Below, piece after piece: positions 43,208 to 52,825 of a DNA stretch of 64,000 nucleotides. This DNA is from Escherichia coli. Lineage in GTDB: Bacteria; Pseudomonadota; Gammaproteobacteria; Enterobacterales; Enterobacteriaceae. Location: assembly GCF_050920415.1 (NCBI RefSeq), contig NZ_CP169309.1, one strand, 5' to 3'. Under the pieces are notes generated by a model. It saw nothing but the letters and a program-made list of their open reading frames with translations, ran no database searches and was not told where the DNA came from. Both the position numbers and the translations under genes were made by a program. The first letter of the stretch is position 1; each line of letters begins with the position of its first letter.

Positions 43208-45957
<2,750 letters not shown>

Positions 45958-45960
45958 GGA

Positions 45961-46620
45961 ATGGGTGAGATGAACCATCAGGATGTCTTGCCGTTAGCGG
46001 AAGTCAGCGAAATTGACGAGGCGAAGCGGCAATGGTTGCAGGGGATGCGCCACCCCGTTGATACGGTAAGTGAAGACATCACAGAACCAGAACCTGCTGA
46101 AATCCTGGCAGAGTTCATTCGCCAGCATTCTGCGGCTGGGCAGTTGGTGGCGCACGCCGTGTTTCTCTCGCCACCCTATTCGGTTGCAGAAGAGGAACTG
46201 TCAGTTTTGCTGGAAAACATTAAGCAGAACGGAGACTACGCGGATATCGCGTGTATGACGGGAAGCCAGGATGATTACTATTACTCAACGCAGGCCATGA
46301 GTGAAAACTACGCGGCGATGTCTTTGCAAGTTGTGGAGCAGGACATTTGTCGCGCTATTGCACACGCCGTTCGTTTTGAGTGCCAGACATATCCCCGTCC
46401 TTACAAAGTCGCCATGCTGATGCAAGCGCCATATTACTTCCAGGAAGCGCAGATTGAAGCCGCGATCGCCGCGATGGATGTTGCACCTGAATATGCCGAT
46501 ATACGGCAGGTGGAGTCATCGACGGCGGTGTTGTACTTGTTTAGCGAGCGATTTATGACCTATGGCAAAGCTTATGGCTTATGCGAATGGTTCGAGGTAG
46601 AGCAGTTTCAGAACCCCTGA
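45961..46620 (+). CDS. ydhW: Protein of unknown function YdhW
   Basis: About 216-219 aa acidic protein in operon position; the start may be ATG 45961 or 45970. Confidence 0.8.
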   Translation: MGEMNHQDVLPLAEVSEIDEAKRQWLQGMRHPVDTVSEDITEPEPAEILAEFIRQHSAAGQLVAHAVFLSPPYSVAEEELSVLLENIKQNGDYADIACMTGSQDDYYYSTQAMSENYAAMSLQVVEQDICRAIAHAVRFECQTYPRPYKVAMLMQAPYYFQEAQIEAAIAAMDVAPEYADIRQVESSTAVLYLFSERFMTYGKAYGLCEWFEVEQFQNP

Positions 46621-46683
46621 AATTTCAGGGAGATGTCATGGATAGGGTGGACAGTTGTAGCCACTGCATTAGGGGATAATCAG

Positions 46684-47352
46684 ATGTCCTTCACTCGACG
46701 CAAATTTGTTCTGGGGATGGGAACAGTAATCTTTTTTACTGGTTCAGCGTCTTCTCTGTTAGCGAACACGAGGCAAGAAAAGGAAGTTCGGTATGCCATG
46801 ATTCATGACGAGTCACGGTGCAATGGCTGTAATATTTGCGCCCGCGCATGCCGTAAAACCAATCATGTCCCCGCTCAGGGAAGCCGTTTATCGATAGCAC
46901 ACATACCGGTCACCGATAACGACAACGAAACGCAGTATCACTTTTTTCGCCAGTCATGCCAGCACTGTGAAGATGCTCCTTGCATCGACGTTTGCCCAAC
47001 AGGAGCGTCATGGCGTGATATGCAGGGGATCGTGCGGGTAGAAAAATCGCAGTGCATCGGCTGCAGTTATTGCATTGGCGCTTGCCCGTACCAGGTTCGC
47101 TACCTTAACCCTGTCACTAAAGTTGCAGATAAATGTGATTTCTGCGCTGAGTCCCGACTGGCAAAAGGCTTTCCGCCCATTTGCGTCAGCGCCTGTCCGG
47201 AACACGCATTGATCTTTGGTCGCGAAGATAGCCCAGAAATTCAGGCGTGGTTGCAGGAAAATAAATACTATCAATATCAGCTACCTGGTGCCGGGAAACC
47301 GCATCTGTATCGCCGATTCGGTCAACATTTGATTAAAAAGGAAAATGTATGA
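46684..47352 (+). CDS. ydhX: Tat-signal 4Fe-4S ferredoxin-like protein
   Basis: 222 aa from ATG 46684; twin-arginine motif TRRKFVLG; four Cys clusters; stop overlaps ydhU start (ATGA). Confidence 0.85.
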   Translation: MSFTRRKFVLGMGTVIFFTGSASSLLANTRQEKEVRYAMIHDESRCNGCNICARACRKTNHVPAQGSRLSIAHIPVTDNDNETQYHFFRQSCQHCEDAPCIDVCPTGASWRDMQGIVRVEKSQCIGCSYCIGACPYQVRYLNPVTKVADKCDFCAESRLAKGFPPICVSACPEHALIFGREDSPEIQAWLQENKYYQYQLPGAGKPHLYRRFGQHLIKKENV

Positions 47353-48134
47353 ACCCGTCGCAACATGCTGAACAGTTTCAGAGCCAGTTGGCGAACTATG
47401 TGCCACAGTTCACTCCCCAATTTTGGCCGGTGTGGTTGATCATTGCTGGACTATTGCTGGTAGGGATGTGGTTTGTGCTGGGGCTGCATGCCTTGCTTCG
47501 TGCTCGTGGCGTGAAGAAATCAGCCACCGACCATGGTGAGAAGGTTTATCTTTACAGCAAAGCGGTCAGATTATGGCACTGGTCGAATGCGTTACTCTTT
47601 GTATTGTTGCTGGCAAGTGGGCTGATAAATCACTTTGCGCTGGTGGGCGCAACTGCGGTTAAAAGTCTGGTTGCGGTGCATGAAGTTTGCGGATTTTTGT
47701 TACTGGCATGCTGGCTCGGCTTTGTTCTGATCAATGCCGTTGGGGGTAATGGTCACCACTATCGCATTCGTCGTCAGGGGTGGCTGGAGCGAGCGGCAAA
47801 ACAAACGCGATTCTATTTGTTTGGCATTATGCAGGGGGAAGAACATCCTTTCCCGGCAACAACCCAGTCTAAATTTAATCCCTTACAGCAGGTTGCCTAT
47901 ATTGGTGTCATGTATGGATTGCTGCCGTTGTTACTATTGACGGGGCTGCTGTGTCTCTATCCGCAAGCCGTGGGAGATGTGTTTCCTGGCGTAAGATACT
48001 GGTTATTGCAGGCGCATTTTGCTCTGGCATTTATAAGCCTCTTTTTTATCTTCGGTCATCTTTATCTTTGCACCACGGGGCGTACGCCACACGAAACCTT
48101 TAAAAGCATGGTCGATGGCTATCACCGGCACTAA
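47349..48134 (+). CDS. ydhU: Cytochrome b-type membrane anchor (PhsC-like)
   Basis: 261 aa with multiple hydrophobic helices and conserved His residues. Confidence 0.88.
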   Translation: MNPSQHAEQFQSQLANYVPQFTPQFWPVWLIIAGLLLVGMWFVLGLHALLRARGVKKSATDHGEKVYLYSKAVRLWHWSNALLFVLLLASGLINHFALVGATAVKSLVAVHEVCGFLLLACWLGFVLINAVGGNGHHYRIRRQGWLERAAKQTRFYLFGIMQGEEHPFPATTQSKFNPLQQVAYIGVMYGLLPLLLLTGLLCLYPQAVGDVFPGVRYWLLQAHFALAFISLFFIFGHLYLCTTGRTPHETFKSMVDGYHRH

Positions 48135-48137
48135 CGA

Positions 48138-48950
48138 ATGATCATTACACGAGCAGACCTGCGAGAATGGCGTATCGGAGCGGTGATGTATCGCTGGTTC
48201 CTGCGCCATTTCCCACGCGGCGGTAGTTATGCCGATATTCATCATGCACTTATTGAGGAAGGATATACGGACTGGGCGGAGAGTCTGGTTGAGTATGCGT
48301 GGAAAAAATGGCTGGCGGATGAAAACTTCGCGCATCAGGAAGTTTCTTCTATGCAAAAACTGGCCATAGATCCCGGAGATAGACCATTTTGCAGTCAGTT
48401 TGCCCGCAGCGACGATCATGCTCGCATCGGCTGTTGTGAGGATAATGCCAGAATCGCAACTGCTGGGTATGCCGCGCAAATTGCCAGTATGGGTTATAGC
48501 GTGCGGATTGGAAGTGTCGGCTTTAACAGTCACATTGGCAGCTCCGGTGAACGCGCACGGGTTGCTGTAACCGGTAATTCTTCGCGGATAAGCAGCGCTG
48601 GAGATAGTAGTCGGATTGCGAATACCGGAATGCGAGTACGCGTTTGCACATTGGGTGAACGGTGTCATGTCGCCAGTAATGGTGACCTGGTGCAAATCGC
48701 CAGCTTTGGCGCAAACGCCAGAATTGCCAACAGCGGCGACAATGTACACATCATTGCCAGCGGTGAAGATTCAACAATAGTGAGCACGGGCGTGGTCGAC
48801 TCAATTATTCTCGGGCCAGGGGGAAGCGCCGCACTGGCATATCATGACGGCGAAAGAGTTCGCTTCGCCGTCGCCATTGAAGGTGAAAACAATATTCGAG
48901 CCGGAGTCCGCTATCGCCTTAATGAACAGCATCAGTTTGTTGAGTGCTGA
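48138..48950 (+). CDS. ydhT: Protein YdhT with 9-residue tandem repeats
   Basis: 270 aa; residues ~91-226 form about 15 tandem nonapeptide repeats of type G-x-x-x-x-R-[IV]-[AG]-S. Confidence 0.85.
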   Translation: MIITRADLREWRIGAVMYRWFLRHFPRGGSYADIHHALIEEGYTDWAESLVEYAWKKWLADENFAHQEVSSMQKLAIDPGDRPFCSQFARSDDHARIGCCEDNARIATAGYAAQIASMGYSVRIGSVGFNSHIGSSGERARVAVTGNSSRISSAGDSSRIANTGMRVRVCTLGERCHVASNGDLVQIASFGANARIANSGDNVHIIASGEDSTIVSTGVVDSIILGPGGSAALAYHDGERVRFAVAIEGENNIRAGVRYRLNEQHQFVEC

Positions 48951-48955
48951 TAGCT

Positions 48956-50566
48956 TTACATTTGATCAAACGAAAGACGCCGACGAGCACGGGATGCAGG
49001 CTTTACGACCGCCTGAGCCATCGCCTCACCAATTTCTGCACATGCCGTAAGTCCCTGTACGAATGGCCGGTCGTGCATCAACCAGGGCAACGCGCCGAAC
49101 GCTACGCGCCCACGAATTTCTTCGGGTTGCTGTAGCGTATAATCTTCGCCAACATCAGGGATTTCATCCCCTGTTTTCTGTAATTGTTCGCGTAGTCCAG
49201 GGAAAGGAATATCTTTCACTTTAAGCGGACGCTGCCCGCGGGCATCAATAAAAACGTCAAACGAGTAGCTATCGTCTTCCGTTTTCAGGACGGTGCGCGA
49301 CTCATTAATTTCCATTTCGTAGTCTTCACCGAGGGCGAGAATATGAATGATTCCCGCTTCACGTAAGGCCAGTAGTCGACGAATAGACTCTGAAGGGATT
49401 GCCGCATAATTATCGATGAAAACCCGGGCAAGGCCTTTACTGAACCGTTTATGGTCGTGTTCATTCAGATGAGGAACAATTTCCTGTACGGCTTCATGCA
49501 GGCGCAGAATGACATAACGCCAGGGAACAGTATGTTTTTCTCGTTTATTGCGTTCGACTTCCTGGAGATTTTTTTCTGCCCAGTCGAATGGGTCGCGTTG
49601 TTTGCGCTCGGCAAACCAGGCTTGAGCAAAGGAATCGACATTCAGGCTCTCTAAGGCTATGCGTTGGCTCCAGTCTGGATCAGCAAATTTGATTTCCTCT
49701 ACTATTAATTCGAATACTCGATCCAAAAGGCCCTCTTCGCCTTTTTGAATCTCCGCATTTAATGCCTGTTCAGTGACGATGTGTAAGGGCTCGTAGGGAA
49801 TAGGGCAATAGAAATCGGCTTCGGGTAAAATACCCGTGCGCGACATCAACGTAATATTTAGCTTTTCACTTGCGTTATCGCGGTGAAAAACGACGTGTTG
49901 TTTATCATCTTCAATGAACGAACCATGCTGAATAGCCACTGCCATTGCCGCATCCAGTCCGCTCAAGGATGTTCCCATAATACCCACGTTACACGCATCG
50001 ACCTTTGCTTCCATCAGGCCTGACCACGGGCTGGGAAAATACGTTCTGGTTGCTTCTTCTTCATCAGGCCAGACGTGACCCGTCGCGATCACCGCTAAAT
50101 CAAACGTCTCGCTGGGTAAATCCTGATTTGTAGCGAGCATGACGCCAGCATTTATAATTTGCAGATCGGTAACCTGGCATGATTCATAAACAGCCACTGC
50201 AAATTTTTGCTGTCGTGCCTGGTCTACTAATCGTAAAAATTGATCGCGGAAATATTCGCCCAGCAGAATTCGCGGTAAAAACTGGCGATCGTGCAAGGTT
50301 TCTTTTTTAACGCCATAACGCTGGAGATGGCTGGCTTCTTGCTTTTGTAGCCATTCGAGATACGTACAATAAATCGGCGGTATTTCAATACTGGCAATAT
50401 TTGCCAGCATCAGTTTTGAGTTTTCCTCATCACTGTATGGCATCCCGACACCGGCTTCGTCAGCCTGCTCGAAGATAGAAATAGAAAGTGGAGTTTGTTG
50501 CTGTAGAAGCGAGAATAAGGTGTAGATCCCCGTAGGCCCGGCACCCACAATAGCAATTTTTTTCAT
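48956..50566 (-). CDS. ydhS: FAD/NAD(P)-binding protein YdhS
   Basis: 536 aa, N-terminal Rossmann motif IAIVGAGPTG. Confidence 0.88.
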   Translation of the reverse strand: MKKIAIVGAGPTGIYTLFSLLQQQTPLSISIFEQADEAGVGMPYSDEENSKLMLANIASIEIPPIYCTYLEWLQKQEASHLQRYGVKKETLHDRQFLPRILLGEYFRDQFLRLVDQARQQKFAVAVYESCQVTDLQIINAGVMLATNQDLPSETFDLAVIATGHVWPDEEEATRTYFPSPWSGLMEAKVDACNVGIMGTSLSGLDAAMAVAIQHGSFIEDDKQHVVFHRDNASEKLNITLMSRTGILPEADFYCPIPYEPLHIVTEQALNAEIQKGEEGLLDRVFELIVEEIKFADPDWSQRIALESLNVDSFAQAWFAERKQRDPFDWAEKNLQEVERNKREKHTVPWRYVILRLHEAVQEIVPHLNEHDHKRFSKGLARVFIDNYAAIPSESIRRLLALREAGIIHILALGEDYEMEINESRTVLKTEDDSYSFDVFIDARGQRPLKVKDIPFPGLREQLQKTGDEIPDVGEDYTLQQPEEIRGRVAFGALPWLMHDRPFVQGLTACAEIGEAMAQAVVKPASRARRRLSFDQM

Positions 50567-50691
50567 TGTTACTTACCTGTACGCATTCTTTCGAATTTAG
50601 TGTTATCAGATAAGTTTGGTTGAAATTTTTAGAATTTGAGAAATTTCAGACAGGGATGAAAAGGGCGCTAACCGCCCTTGGTTAAAATCTG

Positions 50692-50997
50692 TCAGGCGAG
50701 TTTTGCCTGATTGATTTGACTCAGTGGCTCATTGACATCGAAAACTTTGGCGACAACTTCCTCAACGCCGAGATTTTTCAGTCGGGCAGTATGTTTTTCC
50801 AGATAGGCAAGGGCGCTTTTTTCATCAGTGAAAAGGTAGATCCCACCGGCTTCGTGGTTCTTTTCACTTTCTGTCCATACCTTCCACAGAAAACCAGGTT
50901 CCTGATTAATTGACTCAGCAAGCGGTTTAAGCTGCTCAGCCATTGCGTCGCCAAATGGGCCATTAAAAGCAAAATGAAGTTGTAACAAAGTTGCCAT
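50692..50997 (-). CDS. ydhR: Small dimeric alpha/beta-barrel (putative monooxygenase) protein YdhR
   Basis: 101 aa, ATG 50997, [16 protein letters not shown]. Confidence 0.85.
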
Positions 50998-51104
50998 AGC
51001 GATTCTCCTTCTGATAACGCATACGAAGACAGTGTAAATCTTTTAACGTATTGGATACAGAGAAGAAACAGAGGGAAAAAGGAGAAGACCAGATTAAGAA
51101 AATC

Positions 51105-51181
51105 TGGTGCGTCCGAGTGGACTCGAACCACCGACCCCCACCATGTCAAGGTGGTGCTCTAACCAACTGAGCTACGGACGC
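51105..51181 (-). tRNA. valW: tRNA-Val (anticodon GAC), downstream copy
   Basis: Reverse complement GCGTCCGTAGCTCAGTTGGTTAGAGCACCACCTTGACATGGTGGGGGTCGGTGGTTCGAGTCCACTCGGACGCACCA folds as tRNA with anticodon GAC and encoded CCA; valV/valW names assigned by position only. Confidence 0.95.
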
Positions 51182-51185
51182 AGGA

Positions 51186-51262
51186 TGGTGCGTTCAATTG
51201 GACTCGAACCAACGACCCCCACCATGTCAAGGTGGTGCTCTAACCAACTGAGCTATGAACGC
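51186..51262 (-). tRNA. valV: tRNA-Val (anticodon GAC), upstream copy
   Basis: Reverse complement GCGTTCATAGCTCAGTTGGTTAGAGCACCACCTTGACATGGTGGGGGTCGTTGGTTCGAGTCCAATTGAACGCACCA; 4-nt spacer to the second copy. Confidence 0.95.
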
Positions 51263-51568
51263 AACGTTGTAGGTGACAACGGGGACGAATATTAGCGGCA
51301 GAGTGGGAAGGTGGCAAGAGGCAAAACGTATTTTTCTGCGGTATTTCGACCGTTTGCAGAGCTTTTAAGCAAATTGGCTATATTTTGTTGATTTGCAAGG
51401 GCGATTTTTATTCAGGATCGCATTTACATCTGACACAACCCAATAATCTTTATCAGAGTTTAAACAGAGTTGTTTGCCACCATCTCAAAATCTGTCGTGG
51501 ATAAATCCTCCGTAGCCTTTACACTTAGGTAGCAATAAAGGCACACAGATGCAGCAAAGGAATAAATC

Positions 51569-52825
51569 ATGGGATCTGATGCGAAAAACTTGATGAGCGA
51601 CGGGAACGTGCAAATTGTTAAGACCGGCGAGGTCATTGGCGCGACGCAACTTACTGAAGGTGAGTTAATTGTTGAAGCTGGCGCAAGAGCCGAAAATACC
51701 GTGGTCACGGGGGCCGGTTGGTTGAAAGTGGCAACCGGTGGGATCGCCAAATGCACACAGTACGGCAACAATGGCACGCTATCGGTCAGTGACGGTGCCA
51801 TTGCCACAGATATTGTTCAGTCAGAGGGAGGCGCAATTAGTCTCTCTACGCTCGCTACGGTTAATGGCCGCCATCCAGAAGGTAAATTTAGCGTTGATCA
51901 AGGTTATGCCTGCGGTTTGTTGCTGGAAAATGGCGGTAACCTGCGTGTACTGGAAGGCCATCGCGCGGAAAAAATCATTCTCGATCAAGAGGGCGGCCTG
52001 TTGGTCAATGGGACAACCTCAGCGGTCGTGGTAGATGAAGGTGGTGAATTGTTGGTGTATCCAGGTGGGGAAGCCAGCAATTGTGAGATTAATCAGGGCG
52101 GCGTTTTTATGCTGGCGGGGAAAGCCAGTGATACATTGCTTGCTGGTGGCACCATGAATAATCTCGGTGGTGAAGACTCTAACACTATTGTTGAGAATGG
52201 AGCCATTTATCGTCTGGGGACGGATGGCCTTCAGCTCTATAGTTCCGGTAAGACGCAAAACCTGTCCGTTAATGTGGGTGGTCGGGCTGAAGTGCATGCT
52301 GGTGCGCTGGAAAACGCGGTAATACAAGGTGGGACAGTGATCTTGTTGTCACCCACCAGCGCGGACGAAAATTTTGTCGTAGAGGAAGATCGCGCACCGG
52401 TTGAACTGACCGGGAGTGTTGCATTACTGGACGGCGCTTCAATGATTATTGGCTATGGCGCAGATCTGCAACAATCATCGATTACTGTACAGCAGGGCGG
52501 TGTGTTGATTTTCGATGGCAGCACGGTAAAAGGTGACAGTGTCACTTTCAATATTGGTAACATCAATCTGAATGGTGGAAAACTGTGGCTGATCACTGAT
52601 GCGGCAACGCATGTGCAACTGAAAGTGAAACACCTGCGCGGAGAGGGAGCGATTTGCCTGCAAACCAGTGCGAAAGAAATTTCACCTGACTTCATCAATG
52701 TGAAAGGGGAAGTTAACGGTGATATACACGTTGAGATAACCGATGCCAGTCGGCAAACTCTGTGTAACGCACTGAAACTACAGCCAGACGAAGACGGGAT
52801 TGGCGCAACGCTCCAGCCTGCGTAA
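51569..52825 (+). CDS. ydhQ: Autotransporter-passenger-like protein lacking signal peptide and beta-barrel
   Basis: 418 aa Gly/Asn/Thr-rich beta-helix-like repeats; no N-terminal signal sequence and no C-terminal translocator. Confidence 0.88.
   Translation: MGSDAKNLMSDGNVQIVKTGEVIGATQLTEGELIVEAGARAENTVVTGAGWLKVATGGIAKCTQYGNNGTLSVSDGAIATDIVQSEGGAISLSTLATVNGRHPEGKFSVDQGYACGLLLENGGNLRVLEGHRAEKIILDQEGGLLVNGTTSAVVVDEGGELLVYPGGEASNCEINQGGVFMLAGKASDTLLAGGTMNNLGGEDSNTIVENGAIYRLGTDGLQLYSSGKTQNLSVNVGGRAEVHAGALENAVIQGGTVILLSPTSADENFVVEEDRAPVELTGSVALLDGASMIIGYGADLQQSSITVQQGGVLIFDGSTVKGDSVTFNIGNINLNGGKLWLITDAATHVQLKVKHLRGEGAICLQTSAKEISPDFINVKGEVNGDIHVEITDASRQTLCNALKLQPDEDGIGATLQPA

What the first reader, a model, noticed from the sequence alone, without database searches (positions are those of the whole stretch)
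48408..48815. YdhT carries about 15 tandem nonapeptide repeats (27-nt period)
Reading the YdhT translation, residues ~91-226 are a regular 9-residue repeat (ARIGCCEDN / ARIATAGYA / AQIASMGYS / VRIGSVGFN / SHIGSSGER / ARVAVTGNS / SRISSAGDS / SRIANTGMR ...) with a conserved [RQH]-[IV]-[AG]-S core and Gly at fixed spacing. Such periodicity suggests a beta-solenoid fold. A structural or scaffolding role within the ydhYVWXUT complex is possible, but this is inference only.
Basis: seen in the sequence. Interest (0 to 1): 0.5.

Follow-up and report, generated by a model that had tools for sequence, protein, structure and literature searches.

The report
YdhT nonapeptide beta-solenoid, phage-related family
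The E. coli protein YdhT really contains about 16 back-to-back nine-residue repeats, predicted to stack into a rigid beta-solenoid rod, and it belongs to a large uncharacterised family found mostly in phage early regions, so its role in the ydh oxidoreductase operon is probably accessory, not catalytic.

Summary
ydhT (48138-48950, +) encodes a 270-aa protein. Residues 86-229 form 16 units of 9 residues, consensus [ASV]-[RQH]-[IV]-[AG]-S-x-G-[DE..]-x. Protein self-similarity at lag 9 has z = 11.5, and DNA identity at lag 27 has z = 7.7.

An exhaustive profile search finds about 1,170 clusters with the same solenoid and C-cap. All six non-enterobacterial members whose context I examined sit in phage or prophage non-structural regions. 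There the 27-nt units are near-identical, vary in copy number, and differ only at unit positions 2, 8 and 9.

In Enterobacterales, ydhT always follows ydhYVWX(U), in about 12 genera, and is under purifying selection (dN/dS about 0.05). Three ydhYVW operons outside the order lack it.

The beta-solenoid reading is supported. A scaffold or accessory role in the Ydh system is plausible but unproven. A core redox role is unlikely.

The parts
48138..48950 (+). ydhT coding sequence (270 aa plus stop). The ATG lies 3 nt after the ydhU stop codon.
48138..48368 (+). N-terminal 5-helix domain (residues 1-77), Pfam YdhT_N (PF27195). Conserved motif: W-x-AC/VG-x-x-G/Y-x-WF-x3-FP-x-GG-x-Y.
48369..48392 (+). 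Variable linker (residues 78-85). This is the lowest-confidence part of the model, and its length varies between orthologues.
   Evidence: pLDDT 66-77 in blocks 71-90; gaps in alignment A1
48393..48824 (+). Nonapeptide repeat region (residues 86-229): 16 units with a 27-nt period, predicted as 16 beta-strand rungs of a beta-solenoid.
48825..48947 (+). C-terminal beta cap domain (residues 230-270), the most conserved part of the family. Motif: AYHDGERxRFAVAxEGENGIRAGVxYRLN.
   Evidence: Column entropy 0.71 against 1.14 for the solenoid; dN/dS 0.013; family alignment A4; AF2 strands 230-236, 241-247, 258-261 and 267-269
43208..48134 (+). Upstream genes ydhY, ydhV, ydhW, ydhX and ydhU of the FNR-activated ydhYVWXUT operon, which form the context of ydhT.
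   Evidence: Annotation of the identical RefSeq locus; tblastn synteny; FNR class II site listed in PMC3688515
48956..50566 (-). Convergent gene ydhS. Its stop codon is 5 nt from the ydhT stop codon.
   Evidence: the ydhS-ydhT pair is listed as an excludon in PMC12288877

Best explanation
YdhT is a soluble, cytoplasmic protein without a cofactor. It is built as a capped rod.

Structure (predicted):
- Each 9-residue unit supplies a 4-residue beta-strand (positions 2-5) and a 5-residue arc with a near-invariant Gly at position 7.
- Ile/Val at position 3 and a small residue (Ser/Ala) at position 5 fill a narrow core.
- Positions 2 (Arg/Gln/His), 8 and 9 (Asp/Glu/Asn/Tyr) point outward.
- Two units most likely make one 18-residue coil. 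That gives about 8 coils and a rod of roughly 3.5-4 nm.
- A 5-helix N-domain closes one end and a small beta domain closes the other, so the rod cannot grow end to end.
- Individual rungs keep their own conserved surface residues (Y111, Q114, R139, R141, N147, R166, D183). This points to a specific binding surface, not a featureless spacer.

Origin (inferred): the gene belongs to a large family of phage and prophage early-region proteins with the same solenoid and C-cap. It was probably captured at the 3' end of the ydhYVWXU operon in an ancestor of Enterobacterales and then frozen at about 15 units.

Function (inferred, not shown): it is co-translated with the FNR-induced Ydh molybdo-oxidoreductase system. 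It acts as a non-catalytic accessory protein, a docking, assembly or scaffold factor on the cytoplasmic side, and not as an electron-transfer subunit.
For: - Repeat and significance.
- Cytoplasmic location: the maximum 19-residue hydropathy is 1.25 and the N-terminus is not signal-like.
- No cofactor motif: no Cys is invariant or nearly invariant among the 11 orthologues of A1, and only two His (H35, H236) are nearly invariant, with no Cys/His cluster.
- Synteny: ydhT lies directly after ydhU in 36 of the 39 genome loci found. The genera are Escherichia, Citrobacter, Budvicia, Limnobaculum, Serratia, Symbiopectobacterium, Proteus and a Raoultella MAG. One further locus (L049) holds degraded ydh genes, and the other two are not ydh operons. 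ydhT is also after ydhU in Musicola and Brenneria, and after ydhX in Edwardsiella.
- Gene spacing: there is a 3-nt gap between ydhU and ydhT.
- Selection: dN/dS is 0.05-0.06 within Escherichia, similar to ydhU.
- Rung-specific conservation.
- Family size and phage context: 1167 clusters at E <= 1e-3, with phage contexts.
- FNR activation of the operon: PMC3688515.
Against: - No experiment links YdhT to any Ydh protein.
- The operon exists without ydhT in Telmatospirillum, Cetobacterium and a metagenomic lineage at 70% YdhV identity. YdhW, not YdhT, is the accessory protein that always travels with YdhV.
- Full-length relatives (YdhT_N, solenoid and cap) occur in phages that carry no oxidoreductase genes in the stretches examined. 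The ancestral function therefore cannot depend on Ydh.
- The structure is a prediction. No family member has a solved structure.
Confidence: 0.5

Rival explanations
1. YdhT keeps the ancestral phage-family function, some role in phage-host conflict such as exclusion, anti-defence or decoy. Its place at the end of the ydh operon is only positional and it does not act on the oxidoreductase.
For: - Relatives lie in early or accessory regions of temperate phages. In Edwardsiella phage GF-2, gp55 sits directly after the N-like antiterminator and before cIII. Others lie between integrase and primase, or next to ParB or cI-like genes.
- Some family members carry an N-terminal DarG-like macrodomain (PADLOC DarG, E 2e-20 and 4.5e-17).
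- Copy-number-variable arrays are typical of conflict genes.
- ydh operons outside Enterobacterales work without ydhT.
Against: - The gene has kept the same position, tightly packed after ydhU or ydhX, in about 12 genera whose synonymous sites are saturated. This is unusual for a hitch-hiking conflict gene.
- The array is frozen and under purifying selection, not diversifying.
- YdhT gives no PADLOC hit.
- It is expressed from an FNR-dependent anaerobic promoter.
Confidence: 0.25
2. YdhT is a dedicated maturation or Tat-proofreading chaperone for the exported YdhY/YdhX-YdhV module. This is a specific sub-case of the accessory role.
For: - YdhX and YdhY start with twin-arginine-like leaders (output). 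The Cetobacterium operon even carries tatA and tatC.
- YdhT and YdhW are the only two operon products with no cofactor domain recorded. On homologous operons the only Pfam families recorded for them are YdhT_N and YdhW_C.
- From general knowledge, system-specific chaperones are commonly encoded at operon ends.
Against: - YdhW is the universally co-occurring candidate.
- Phage relatives have no Tat substrates nearby.
Confidence: 0.12
3. The repeat is an RTX-type calcium-binding beta-roll, or an ice-binding or adhesin-type extracellular solenoid.
Against: - No GGxGxD or G.G.D motif and no TxT motif.
- No Pfam HemolysinCabind hit even at E <= 10.
- No signal peptide or transmembrane segment.
- It lies in a cytoplasmic operon context, and the solenoid has net charge 0.
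Confidence: 0.02
4. YdhT polymerises into filaments, in the manner of bactofilin or curli, through open solenoid ends.
Against: Both ends are capped by folded, conserved domains in a high-confidence model. There is no Pfam bactofilin or curlin hit. The C-cap is the most conserved part of the whole family.
Confidence: 0.04
5. YdhT is an electron-transfer or catalytic subunit of the oxidoreductase.
For: UniProt-derived names call it 'oxidoreductase subunit', and it is a member of the operon.
Against: No cofactor-binding domain is found. No Cys is invariant or nearly invariant among the 11 orthologues of A1. The E. coli Cys lie at 85, 99, 100, 170, 176 and 270. It is absent from homologous operons in other phyla. 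It evolves far faster than YdhV: 33-45% against 80-86% identity to Proteus and Budvicia.
Confidence: 0.02

Closest known systems
RTX nonapeptide beta-roll (Pfam HemolysinCabind, GGxGxDxUx), e.g. CyaA block V
   Different: It has no GGxGxD calcium-binding turn and no Pfam match. The protein is cytoplasmic and has no T1SS context. The turn uses a single Gly, and the strand is 4 residues long, not 3.
Marinomonas primoryensis antifreeze protein region IV (PDB 3p4g)
   Different: Sequence identity is 8%. MpAFP has a 19-residue Ca-bound coil, an extracellular ice-binding face and Thr/Asx arrays. YdhT has none of these motifs.
DUF7666-domain phage and bacterial proteins (Pfam PF24703)
   Same: They share the homologous nonapeptide solenoid and the C-terminal cap. 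The profile search gives E down to 1e-40, and PHROG 4433 and 18079 also match. AFDB50 fold hits carry the name 'DUF7666 domain-containing protein'.
   Different: The N-terminal domain differs. They have DUF7666, with a C...GFHxC motif, while YdhT has YdhT_N, and YdhT shows no DUF7666 hit. Their arrays are DNA-level variable-number repeats (VNTRs), whereas the YdhT array is diverged and fixed.
Edwardsiella phage GF-2 gp55 ('putative collagen-like protein')
   Same: It has the same three-part architecture over its full length: YdhT_N, 21-22 nonapeptide units and the cap. Identity is 33% over residues 1-269.
   Different: It is encoded in the PL early operon of a lambdoid phage, between N and cIII. 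Its units are identical at DNA level except at positions 2, 8 and 9. The collagen annotation is a compositional artefact.
TAL-effector style repeat arrays (repeat-variable residues)
   Same: This applies only to the phage relatives. Their units are near-identical at DNA level, and all variation is confined to fixed positions drawn from a small alphabet. Unit number and order differ between close relatives.
   Different: The fold is different (beta-solenoid against alpha-solenoid) and the unit is 9 residues against 34. No ligand is known. E. coli YdhT itself no longer shows this pattern.

Membership tests
YdhT (NCBIfam NF007410 equivalog; Pfam YdhT_N PF27195) | Whole-protein HMM score above the curated cutoff | tested here: met
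   487.6 bits against a cutoff of 300, covering residues 2-270. PF27195 is precomputed on all close homologues.
YdhT (operon-linked orthologue group) | Located directly downstream of ydhYVWX(U) | tested here: met
   Window annotation. The same order holds in 36 of 39 genome loci, and also in Edwardsiella, Musicola and Brenneria.
Beta-solenoid fold | Regular stack of short beta-strands with one rung per repeat unit | tested here: met
RTX / HemolysinCabind beta-roll | 9-residue period | tested here: met
   Autocorrelation z = 11.5 at lag 9
RTX / HemolysinCabind beta-roll | GGxGxD calcium-binding consensus and a Pfam PF00353 match | tested here: not met
   No GG.G.D or G.G.D motif. The Pfam scan lists no such hit even at E <= 10.
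RTX / HemolysinCabind beta-roll | Secreted substrate of a type I secretion system; calcium-dependent folding | not testable with these tools
   No T1SS genes are adjacent and no signal or transmembrane segment is present. Folding was not tested.
Pentapeptide, hexapeptide (LbH) and bactofilin repeat families | Pfam PF00805, PF00132 or PF04519 match; 5- or 6-residue period | tested here: not met
   No Pfam hits. No autocorrelation signal at lags 5, 6, 10 or 12.
Ice-binding or antifreeze solenoids (MpAFP-like) | Flat array of Thr/Asx (TxT/TxN) on one face; extracellular location | tested here: not met
   Zero TxT motifs. The protein is predicted to be cytoplasmic.
DUF7666 protein family (PF24703) | N-terminal DUF7666 domain | tested here: not met
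   No DUF7666 hit in YdhT, whereas 22 of 43 distant homologues have it.
DUF7666 protein family (PF24703) | Shared nonapeptide solenoid plus C-terminal cap module | tested here: met
   The profile search aligns positions about 110-302 of the YdhT profile to these proteins. The C-cap alignment A4 includes them.
Redox subunit of the Ydh (class V WOR) oxidoreductase | Cofactor-binding motif (Fe-S Cys cluster, haem or pterin domain) | tested here: not met
   No cofactor domain. No invariant or nearly invariant Cys among the 11 orthologues of A1.
Redox subunit of the Ydh (class V WOR) oxidoreductase | Co-occurrence with YdhV wherever the operon occurs | tested here: not met
   Absent from the operons in Telmatospirillum, a metagenomic lineage and Cetobacterium.
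Redox subunit of the Ydh (class V WOR) oxidoreductase | Physical association with YdhV/Y/X/U | not testable with these tools
   No multimer prediction or interaction data were available.
TALE-like repeat-variable arrays | Units near-identical at DNA level, with variation confined to fixed residues | tested here: not met
   For E. coli ydhT, TRF is silent and identity at lag 27 is 46%. The feature is met only in the phage relatives L002, L004 and L009.

The most novel reading that the evidence does not exclude
The YdhT/DUF7666 solenoid may be a programmable recognition scaffold. Each 9-residue rung would display a small code, made of position 2 and the position 8-9 diresidue, along the ridges of the rod. 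Phages would rewrite the code by shuffling, adding or deleting 27-nt cassettes to track a periodic or rapidly evolving intracellular target, for example a host defence protein or a nucleic-acid or filament lattice. Enterobacterial YdhT would then be a domesticated copy with a frozen code that now recognises a component of the Ydh oxidoreductase system.
Probability: 0.1. Interest if true: 0.85.

Novelty: new variant of a known kind. Interest (0 to 1): 0.5.

Why it matters
YdhT is one of the remaining E. coli K-12 proteins with no known function, and it sits in an operon whose enzyme (a class V AOR/WOR molybdoenzyme) also has no assigned substrate. Showing that YdhT is a capped nonapeptide solenoid of phage-family origin, restricted to Enterobacterales, changes how the operon should be dissected. 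YdhY, V, W, X and U form the conserved system, and YdhT is a lineage-specific add-on. The work also brings to light a family of more than 1,100 clusters, all members examined being phage-borne, with copy-number-variable arrays and variable residues at fixed positions. No structure, Pfam description of the repeat or publication exists for this family. It is a tractable candidate for new phage-host biology or for a designable beta-solenoid scaffold.

Tried and rejected
- Tandem Repeats Finder on the window found no 27-nt array. The periodicity appears only by autocorrelation.
- The Pfam-A scan of YdhT gave nothing significant. The local library seems to lack PF27195.
- PDB sequence searches found nothing with the whole protein, the N-domain profile or the C-cap profile.
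- PADLOC gave no hit for YdhT.
- I rejected the DNA-mimic idea. The solenoid net charge is 0 in YdhT, and the median is 0 per unit across 126 family members.
- Literature: there are no papers on DUF7666 or YdhT_N. Most 'YdhT' text hits are unrelated, namely B. subtilis ydhT or YTHDF typos. The synthetic-lethal 'ydhT' in PMC5120140 is a misprint for yhdT. Partridge et al. 2008 is not held.
- 'Escherichia phage 503046', 98% identical to ydhT, is colinear with the chromosome over 7.7 kb. It is not evidence for a phage-borne ydhT.
- PHROG 'tail fiber' and 'collagen' hits of the phage relatives are low-complexity matches to Gly/Ser repeats, and the genes lie in non-structural regions.

Full report
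**Observation.** The ORF at 48138-48950 (+) encodes a 270-aa protein. It is E. coli ydhT: 100% identical to a RefSeq chromosome and present in 5417 of 5426 complete E. coli genomes. It matches NCBIfam NF007410 'protein YdhT' at 487.6 bits against a cutoff of 300.

In 9-residue register, residues 95-229 read ARIGCCEDN, ARIATAGYA, AQIASMGYS, VRIGSVGFN, SHIGSSGER, ARVAVTGNS, SRISSAGDS, SRIANTGMR, VRVCTLGER, CHVASNGDL, VQIASFGAN, ARIANSGDN, VHIIASGED, STIVSTGVV and DSIILGPGG. A degenerate unit lies at 86-94.

- BLOSUM62 autocorrelation against 1000 shuffles gives z = 11.5, 10.2, 10.2 and 9.1 at lags 9, 18, 27 and 36. No other lag gives a positive signal.
- At DNA level, identity at lag 27 is 46%, against 28.5% for codon-shuffled controls (z = 7.7). 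The signal is strongest at codon positions 1 and 2.
- Tandem Repeats Finder finds no 27-nt array, so the repeat is ancient and diverged at DNA level.
- Over 16 units, Gly occupies position 7 in 13, Ile/Val position 3 in 15, and R/Q/H position 2 in 14.

The boundaries are better set at 48393-48824.

**Structure.** An AlphaFold2 model built on 11 orthologues has mean pLDDT 91.9 and pTM 0.88. It shows three parts:

- five helices (residues 5-77);
- sixteen 4-residue strands spaced exactly 9 residues apart (87-225);
- a small beta domain (230-270).

The close superposition on a 19-residue two-sheet coil, and a core made only of Ile/Val (position 3) and Ser/Ala (position 5), point to two units per 18-residue coil. 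This is an inference, because I could not inspect the coordinates.

**Family.** A word-based search found only enterobacterial orthologues, which vary in length from 225 to 333 aa through gain or loss of whole units. An exhaustive profile search of 1.84 billion representatives found 1167 clusters at E <= 1e-3 and 500 at E <= 1e-10.

Almost all share one plan: a variable N-terminal region, then 7-33 nonapeptide units, then a 50-60-residue C-terminal cap with consensus AG.GG.IAL...D.G.R.R..V.YVGENGIKA.T.Y.LN..GEFVE.

The N-terminal domains are of several kinds:
- YdhT_N (PF27195), also found in many non-enterobacterial members;
- DUF7666 (PF24703), in 22 of 43 longer members;
- a DarG-like macrodomain followed by DUF7666;
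- occasionally a PcfJ-like domain.

AFDB50 fold hits are the same proteins. They are named 'oxidoreductase subunit' by transfer, 'DUF7666 domain-containing protein', or misnamed 'Hemolysin IA', 'Collagen' and 'Ice nucleation protein'. I found no publication on these domains.

**Genomic context outside Enterobacterales.** Every non-enterobacterial member I located on a long contig lies in a phage or prophage, in non-structural regions:

- between integrase and primase;
- after ParB and before terminase;
- next to a cI-like repressor and a DNA methylase;
- upstream of small ORFs and terminase;
- after the helicase/primase genes in Paracoccus phage Shpa;
- in the lambdoid Edwardsiella phage GF-2, directly after the N-like antiterminator and before cIII.

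The record 'Escherichia phage 503046' that carries a 98% identical ydhT is colinear with the chromosome over 7.7 kb, so I discount it.

**Context in Enterobacterales.** A genome-collection scan returned 39 loci. In 36 of them, tblastn finds ydhU ending immediately before the YdhT homologue. One further locus (L049, a Symbiopectobacterium) holds degraded ydh genes. The other two (Sphingopyxis and a Patescibacteria MAG) are not ydh operons. The genera are Escherichia, Citrobacter, Budvicia, Limnobaculum, Serratia, Symbiopectobacterium, Proteus and a Raoultella MAG. Musicola and Brenneria show the same order. Edwardsiella has lost ydhU but keeps ydhT after ydhX.

YdhT diverges much faster than the catalytic subunit. 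Identity to Proteus and Budvicia is 33-45%, against 80-86% for YdhV. Within Escherichia, however, its dN/dS is 0.05-0.06, like ydhU and lower than ydhW, and the C-cap is at 0.013. It is therefore a constrained, functional gene.

Individual rungs keep their own conserved surface residues across genera: Y111, Q114, R139, R141, N147, R166 and D183.

In contrast, ydhYVW(XU) operons in Telmatospirillum, in a metagenomic lineage with 70% YdhV identity, and in Cetobacterium have no ydhT. All of them keep ydhW. The operon is FNR-activated from a class II site (PMC3688515). Its enzyme has no assigned activity (PMC13328260).

**Frozen and live arrays.** In three independent phage genes the 27-nt units form true DNA-level tandem repeats: 21.3 copies at 88%, 14.9 copies at 93% and 20.9 copies at 89%. 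Within each array, the codons for positions 1 and 3-6 are nucleotide-identical in every regular unit, and Gly at position 7 is invariant. Only the one or two degenerate terminal units differ. All variation sits at position 2 (Q/R or Q/K) and in the 8-9 diresidue, drawn from a small alphabet specific to each array:

- DR/ND/YY/DS in GF-2;
- WN/DD/NR in L002;
- HG/DR/DW in L004.

Members of the same 90%-identity cluster differ in the number and order of unit types, with 10, 16, 21 or 28 units. A published evolution experiment recorded a 54-bp (two-unit) deletion in a 1413-nt 'ydhT_1' gene of Serratia symbiotica. By the paper's own coordinates this gene lies inside its mitomycin-inducible prophage (PMC12505973). 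E. coli ydhT shows none of this. Its array is diverged, rung-specific and fixed.

**Interpretation.** The following is shown or strongly predicted: a real nonapeptide repeat, a capped beta-solenoid, a cytoplasmic protein with no cofactor, membership of a large family whose examined non-enterobacterial members are phage-borne, strict synteny restricted to one bacterial order, and purifying selection.

The following is inferred. The gene was captured from the phage family at the 3' end of the operon in an ancestor of Enterobacterales. It now serves as a non-catalytic accessory (docking, assembly or scaffold) factor for the Ydh system. The main rival is that it retains a function unrelated to Ydh, inherited from the phage family, and merely rides on the operon. 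Extracellular RTX-like, ice-binding, filament-forming and redox-subunit readings each fail at least one defining test.

**Novelty and score.** The beta-solenoid fold is a known kind. This repeat is a distinct variant: nonapeptide, with no calcium motif, cytoplasmic and capped at both ends. It belongs to an undescribed family seen so far in phage contexts. The in-window finding on its own is moderately interesting, as structural insight into a gene of unknown function. The repeat-variable arrays in the phage relatives are the most intriguing lead.

Noticed in passing
L009 7279-7843 (Edwardsiella phage GF-2 gp55); L002 10871-11445; L004 10878-11278: Phage relatives of YdhT carry DNA-level 27-nt tandem arrays of 15-21 copies at 88-93% identity. 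The scaffold codons are nucleotide-identical across the regular units. All variation sits at unit position 2 and the 8-9 diresidue, drawn from a small alphabet specific to each array. This resembles TALE repeat-variable residues. Close relatives differ in unit number and order.
   Followed up: partly
L002 10001-11641 (P0067) and L004 10001-11473 (P0096): Some phage family members have an N-terminal DarG-like macrodomain (PADLOC DarG, E 2e-20 and 4.5e-17), followed by DUF7666, the solenoid and the cap. This architecture suggests an anti-DarT (anti-ADP-ribosylation) counter-defence protein.
   Followed up: no
window 48948-48958: The stop codons of the convergent genes ydhT and ydhS are only 5 nt apart, and no terminator-like hairpin lies between them. 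The nearest candidate, at 49156, is no better than chance. The pair is listed as a transcriptional excludon in PMC12288877.
   Followed up: partly
window 45970-46620 (ydhW); L054, L056, L057: YdhW (Pfam YdhW_C), not YdhT, is the uncharacterised protein that accompanies YdhY and YdhV in every operon examined, including outside the Proteobacteria. The Cetobacterium operon also carries tatA, tatC and two moeA genes.
   Followed up: partly
L059 (CP025887.1 'Escherichia phage 503046') 2684-10331: This 23-kb 'phage genome' record is colinear at 97% identity with chromosomal window positions 44809-52477 (ydhV to beyond ydhS). It holds host DNA, not a phage-borne ydhT.
   Followed up: yes
window 48003-48749, minus strand: A 248-aa antisense ORF runs through the 3' end of ydhU and most of ydhT, including most of the repeat region. 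It is probably a by-product of the repeat's codon composition. I did not test whether it is coding.
   Followed up: no
P0010 (E. coli, 198 aa) and P0036 (225 aa): Occasional enterobacterial alleles lack whole blocks of units in frame, by 72 and 45 residues. Unit loss therefore still happens in chromosomal copies.
   Followed up: no
N-terminal regions of P0065, P0075, P0094, P0173 and others: The DUF7666 domain shows a strongly conserved YKGF...C.GFQY.VG.TY...G....C..GFHAC..P.DV..YY pattern. The conserved Cys and His could form a metal site or an active site.
   Followed up: no
window about 51569-52825 (ydhQ, by offset from L001): About 2.6 kb downstream lies ydhQ, annotated as an AIDA repeat-containing protein. 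It is a second, unrelated beta-helix repeat protein in the same window.
   Followed up: no
PMC12505973, Tables 1 and 2: A 54-bp deletion, equal to two nonapeptide units, arose during laboratory evolution in the 1413-nt 'ydhT_1' gene of Serratia symbiotica. The gene lies at 782,372, inside the mitomycin-inducible prophage that starts at 771,733 and spans 48 kb.
   Followed up: partly
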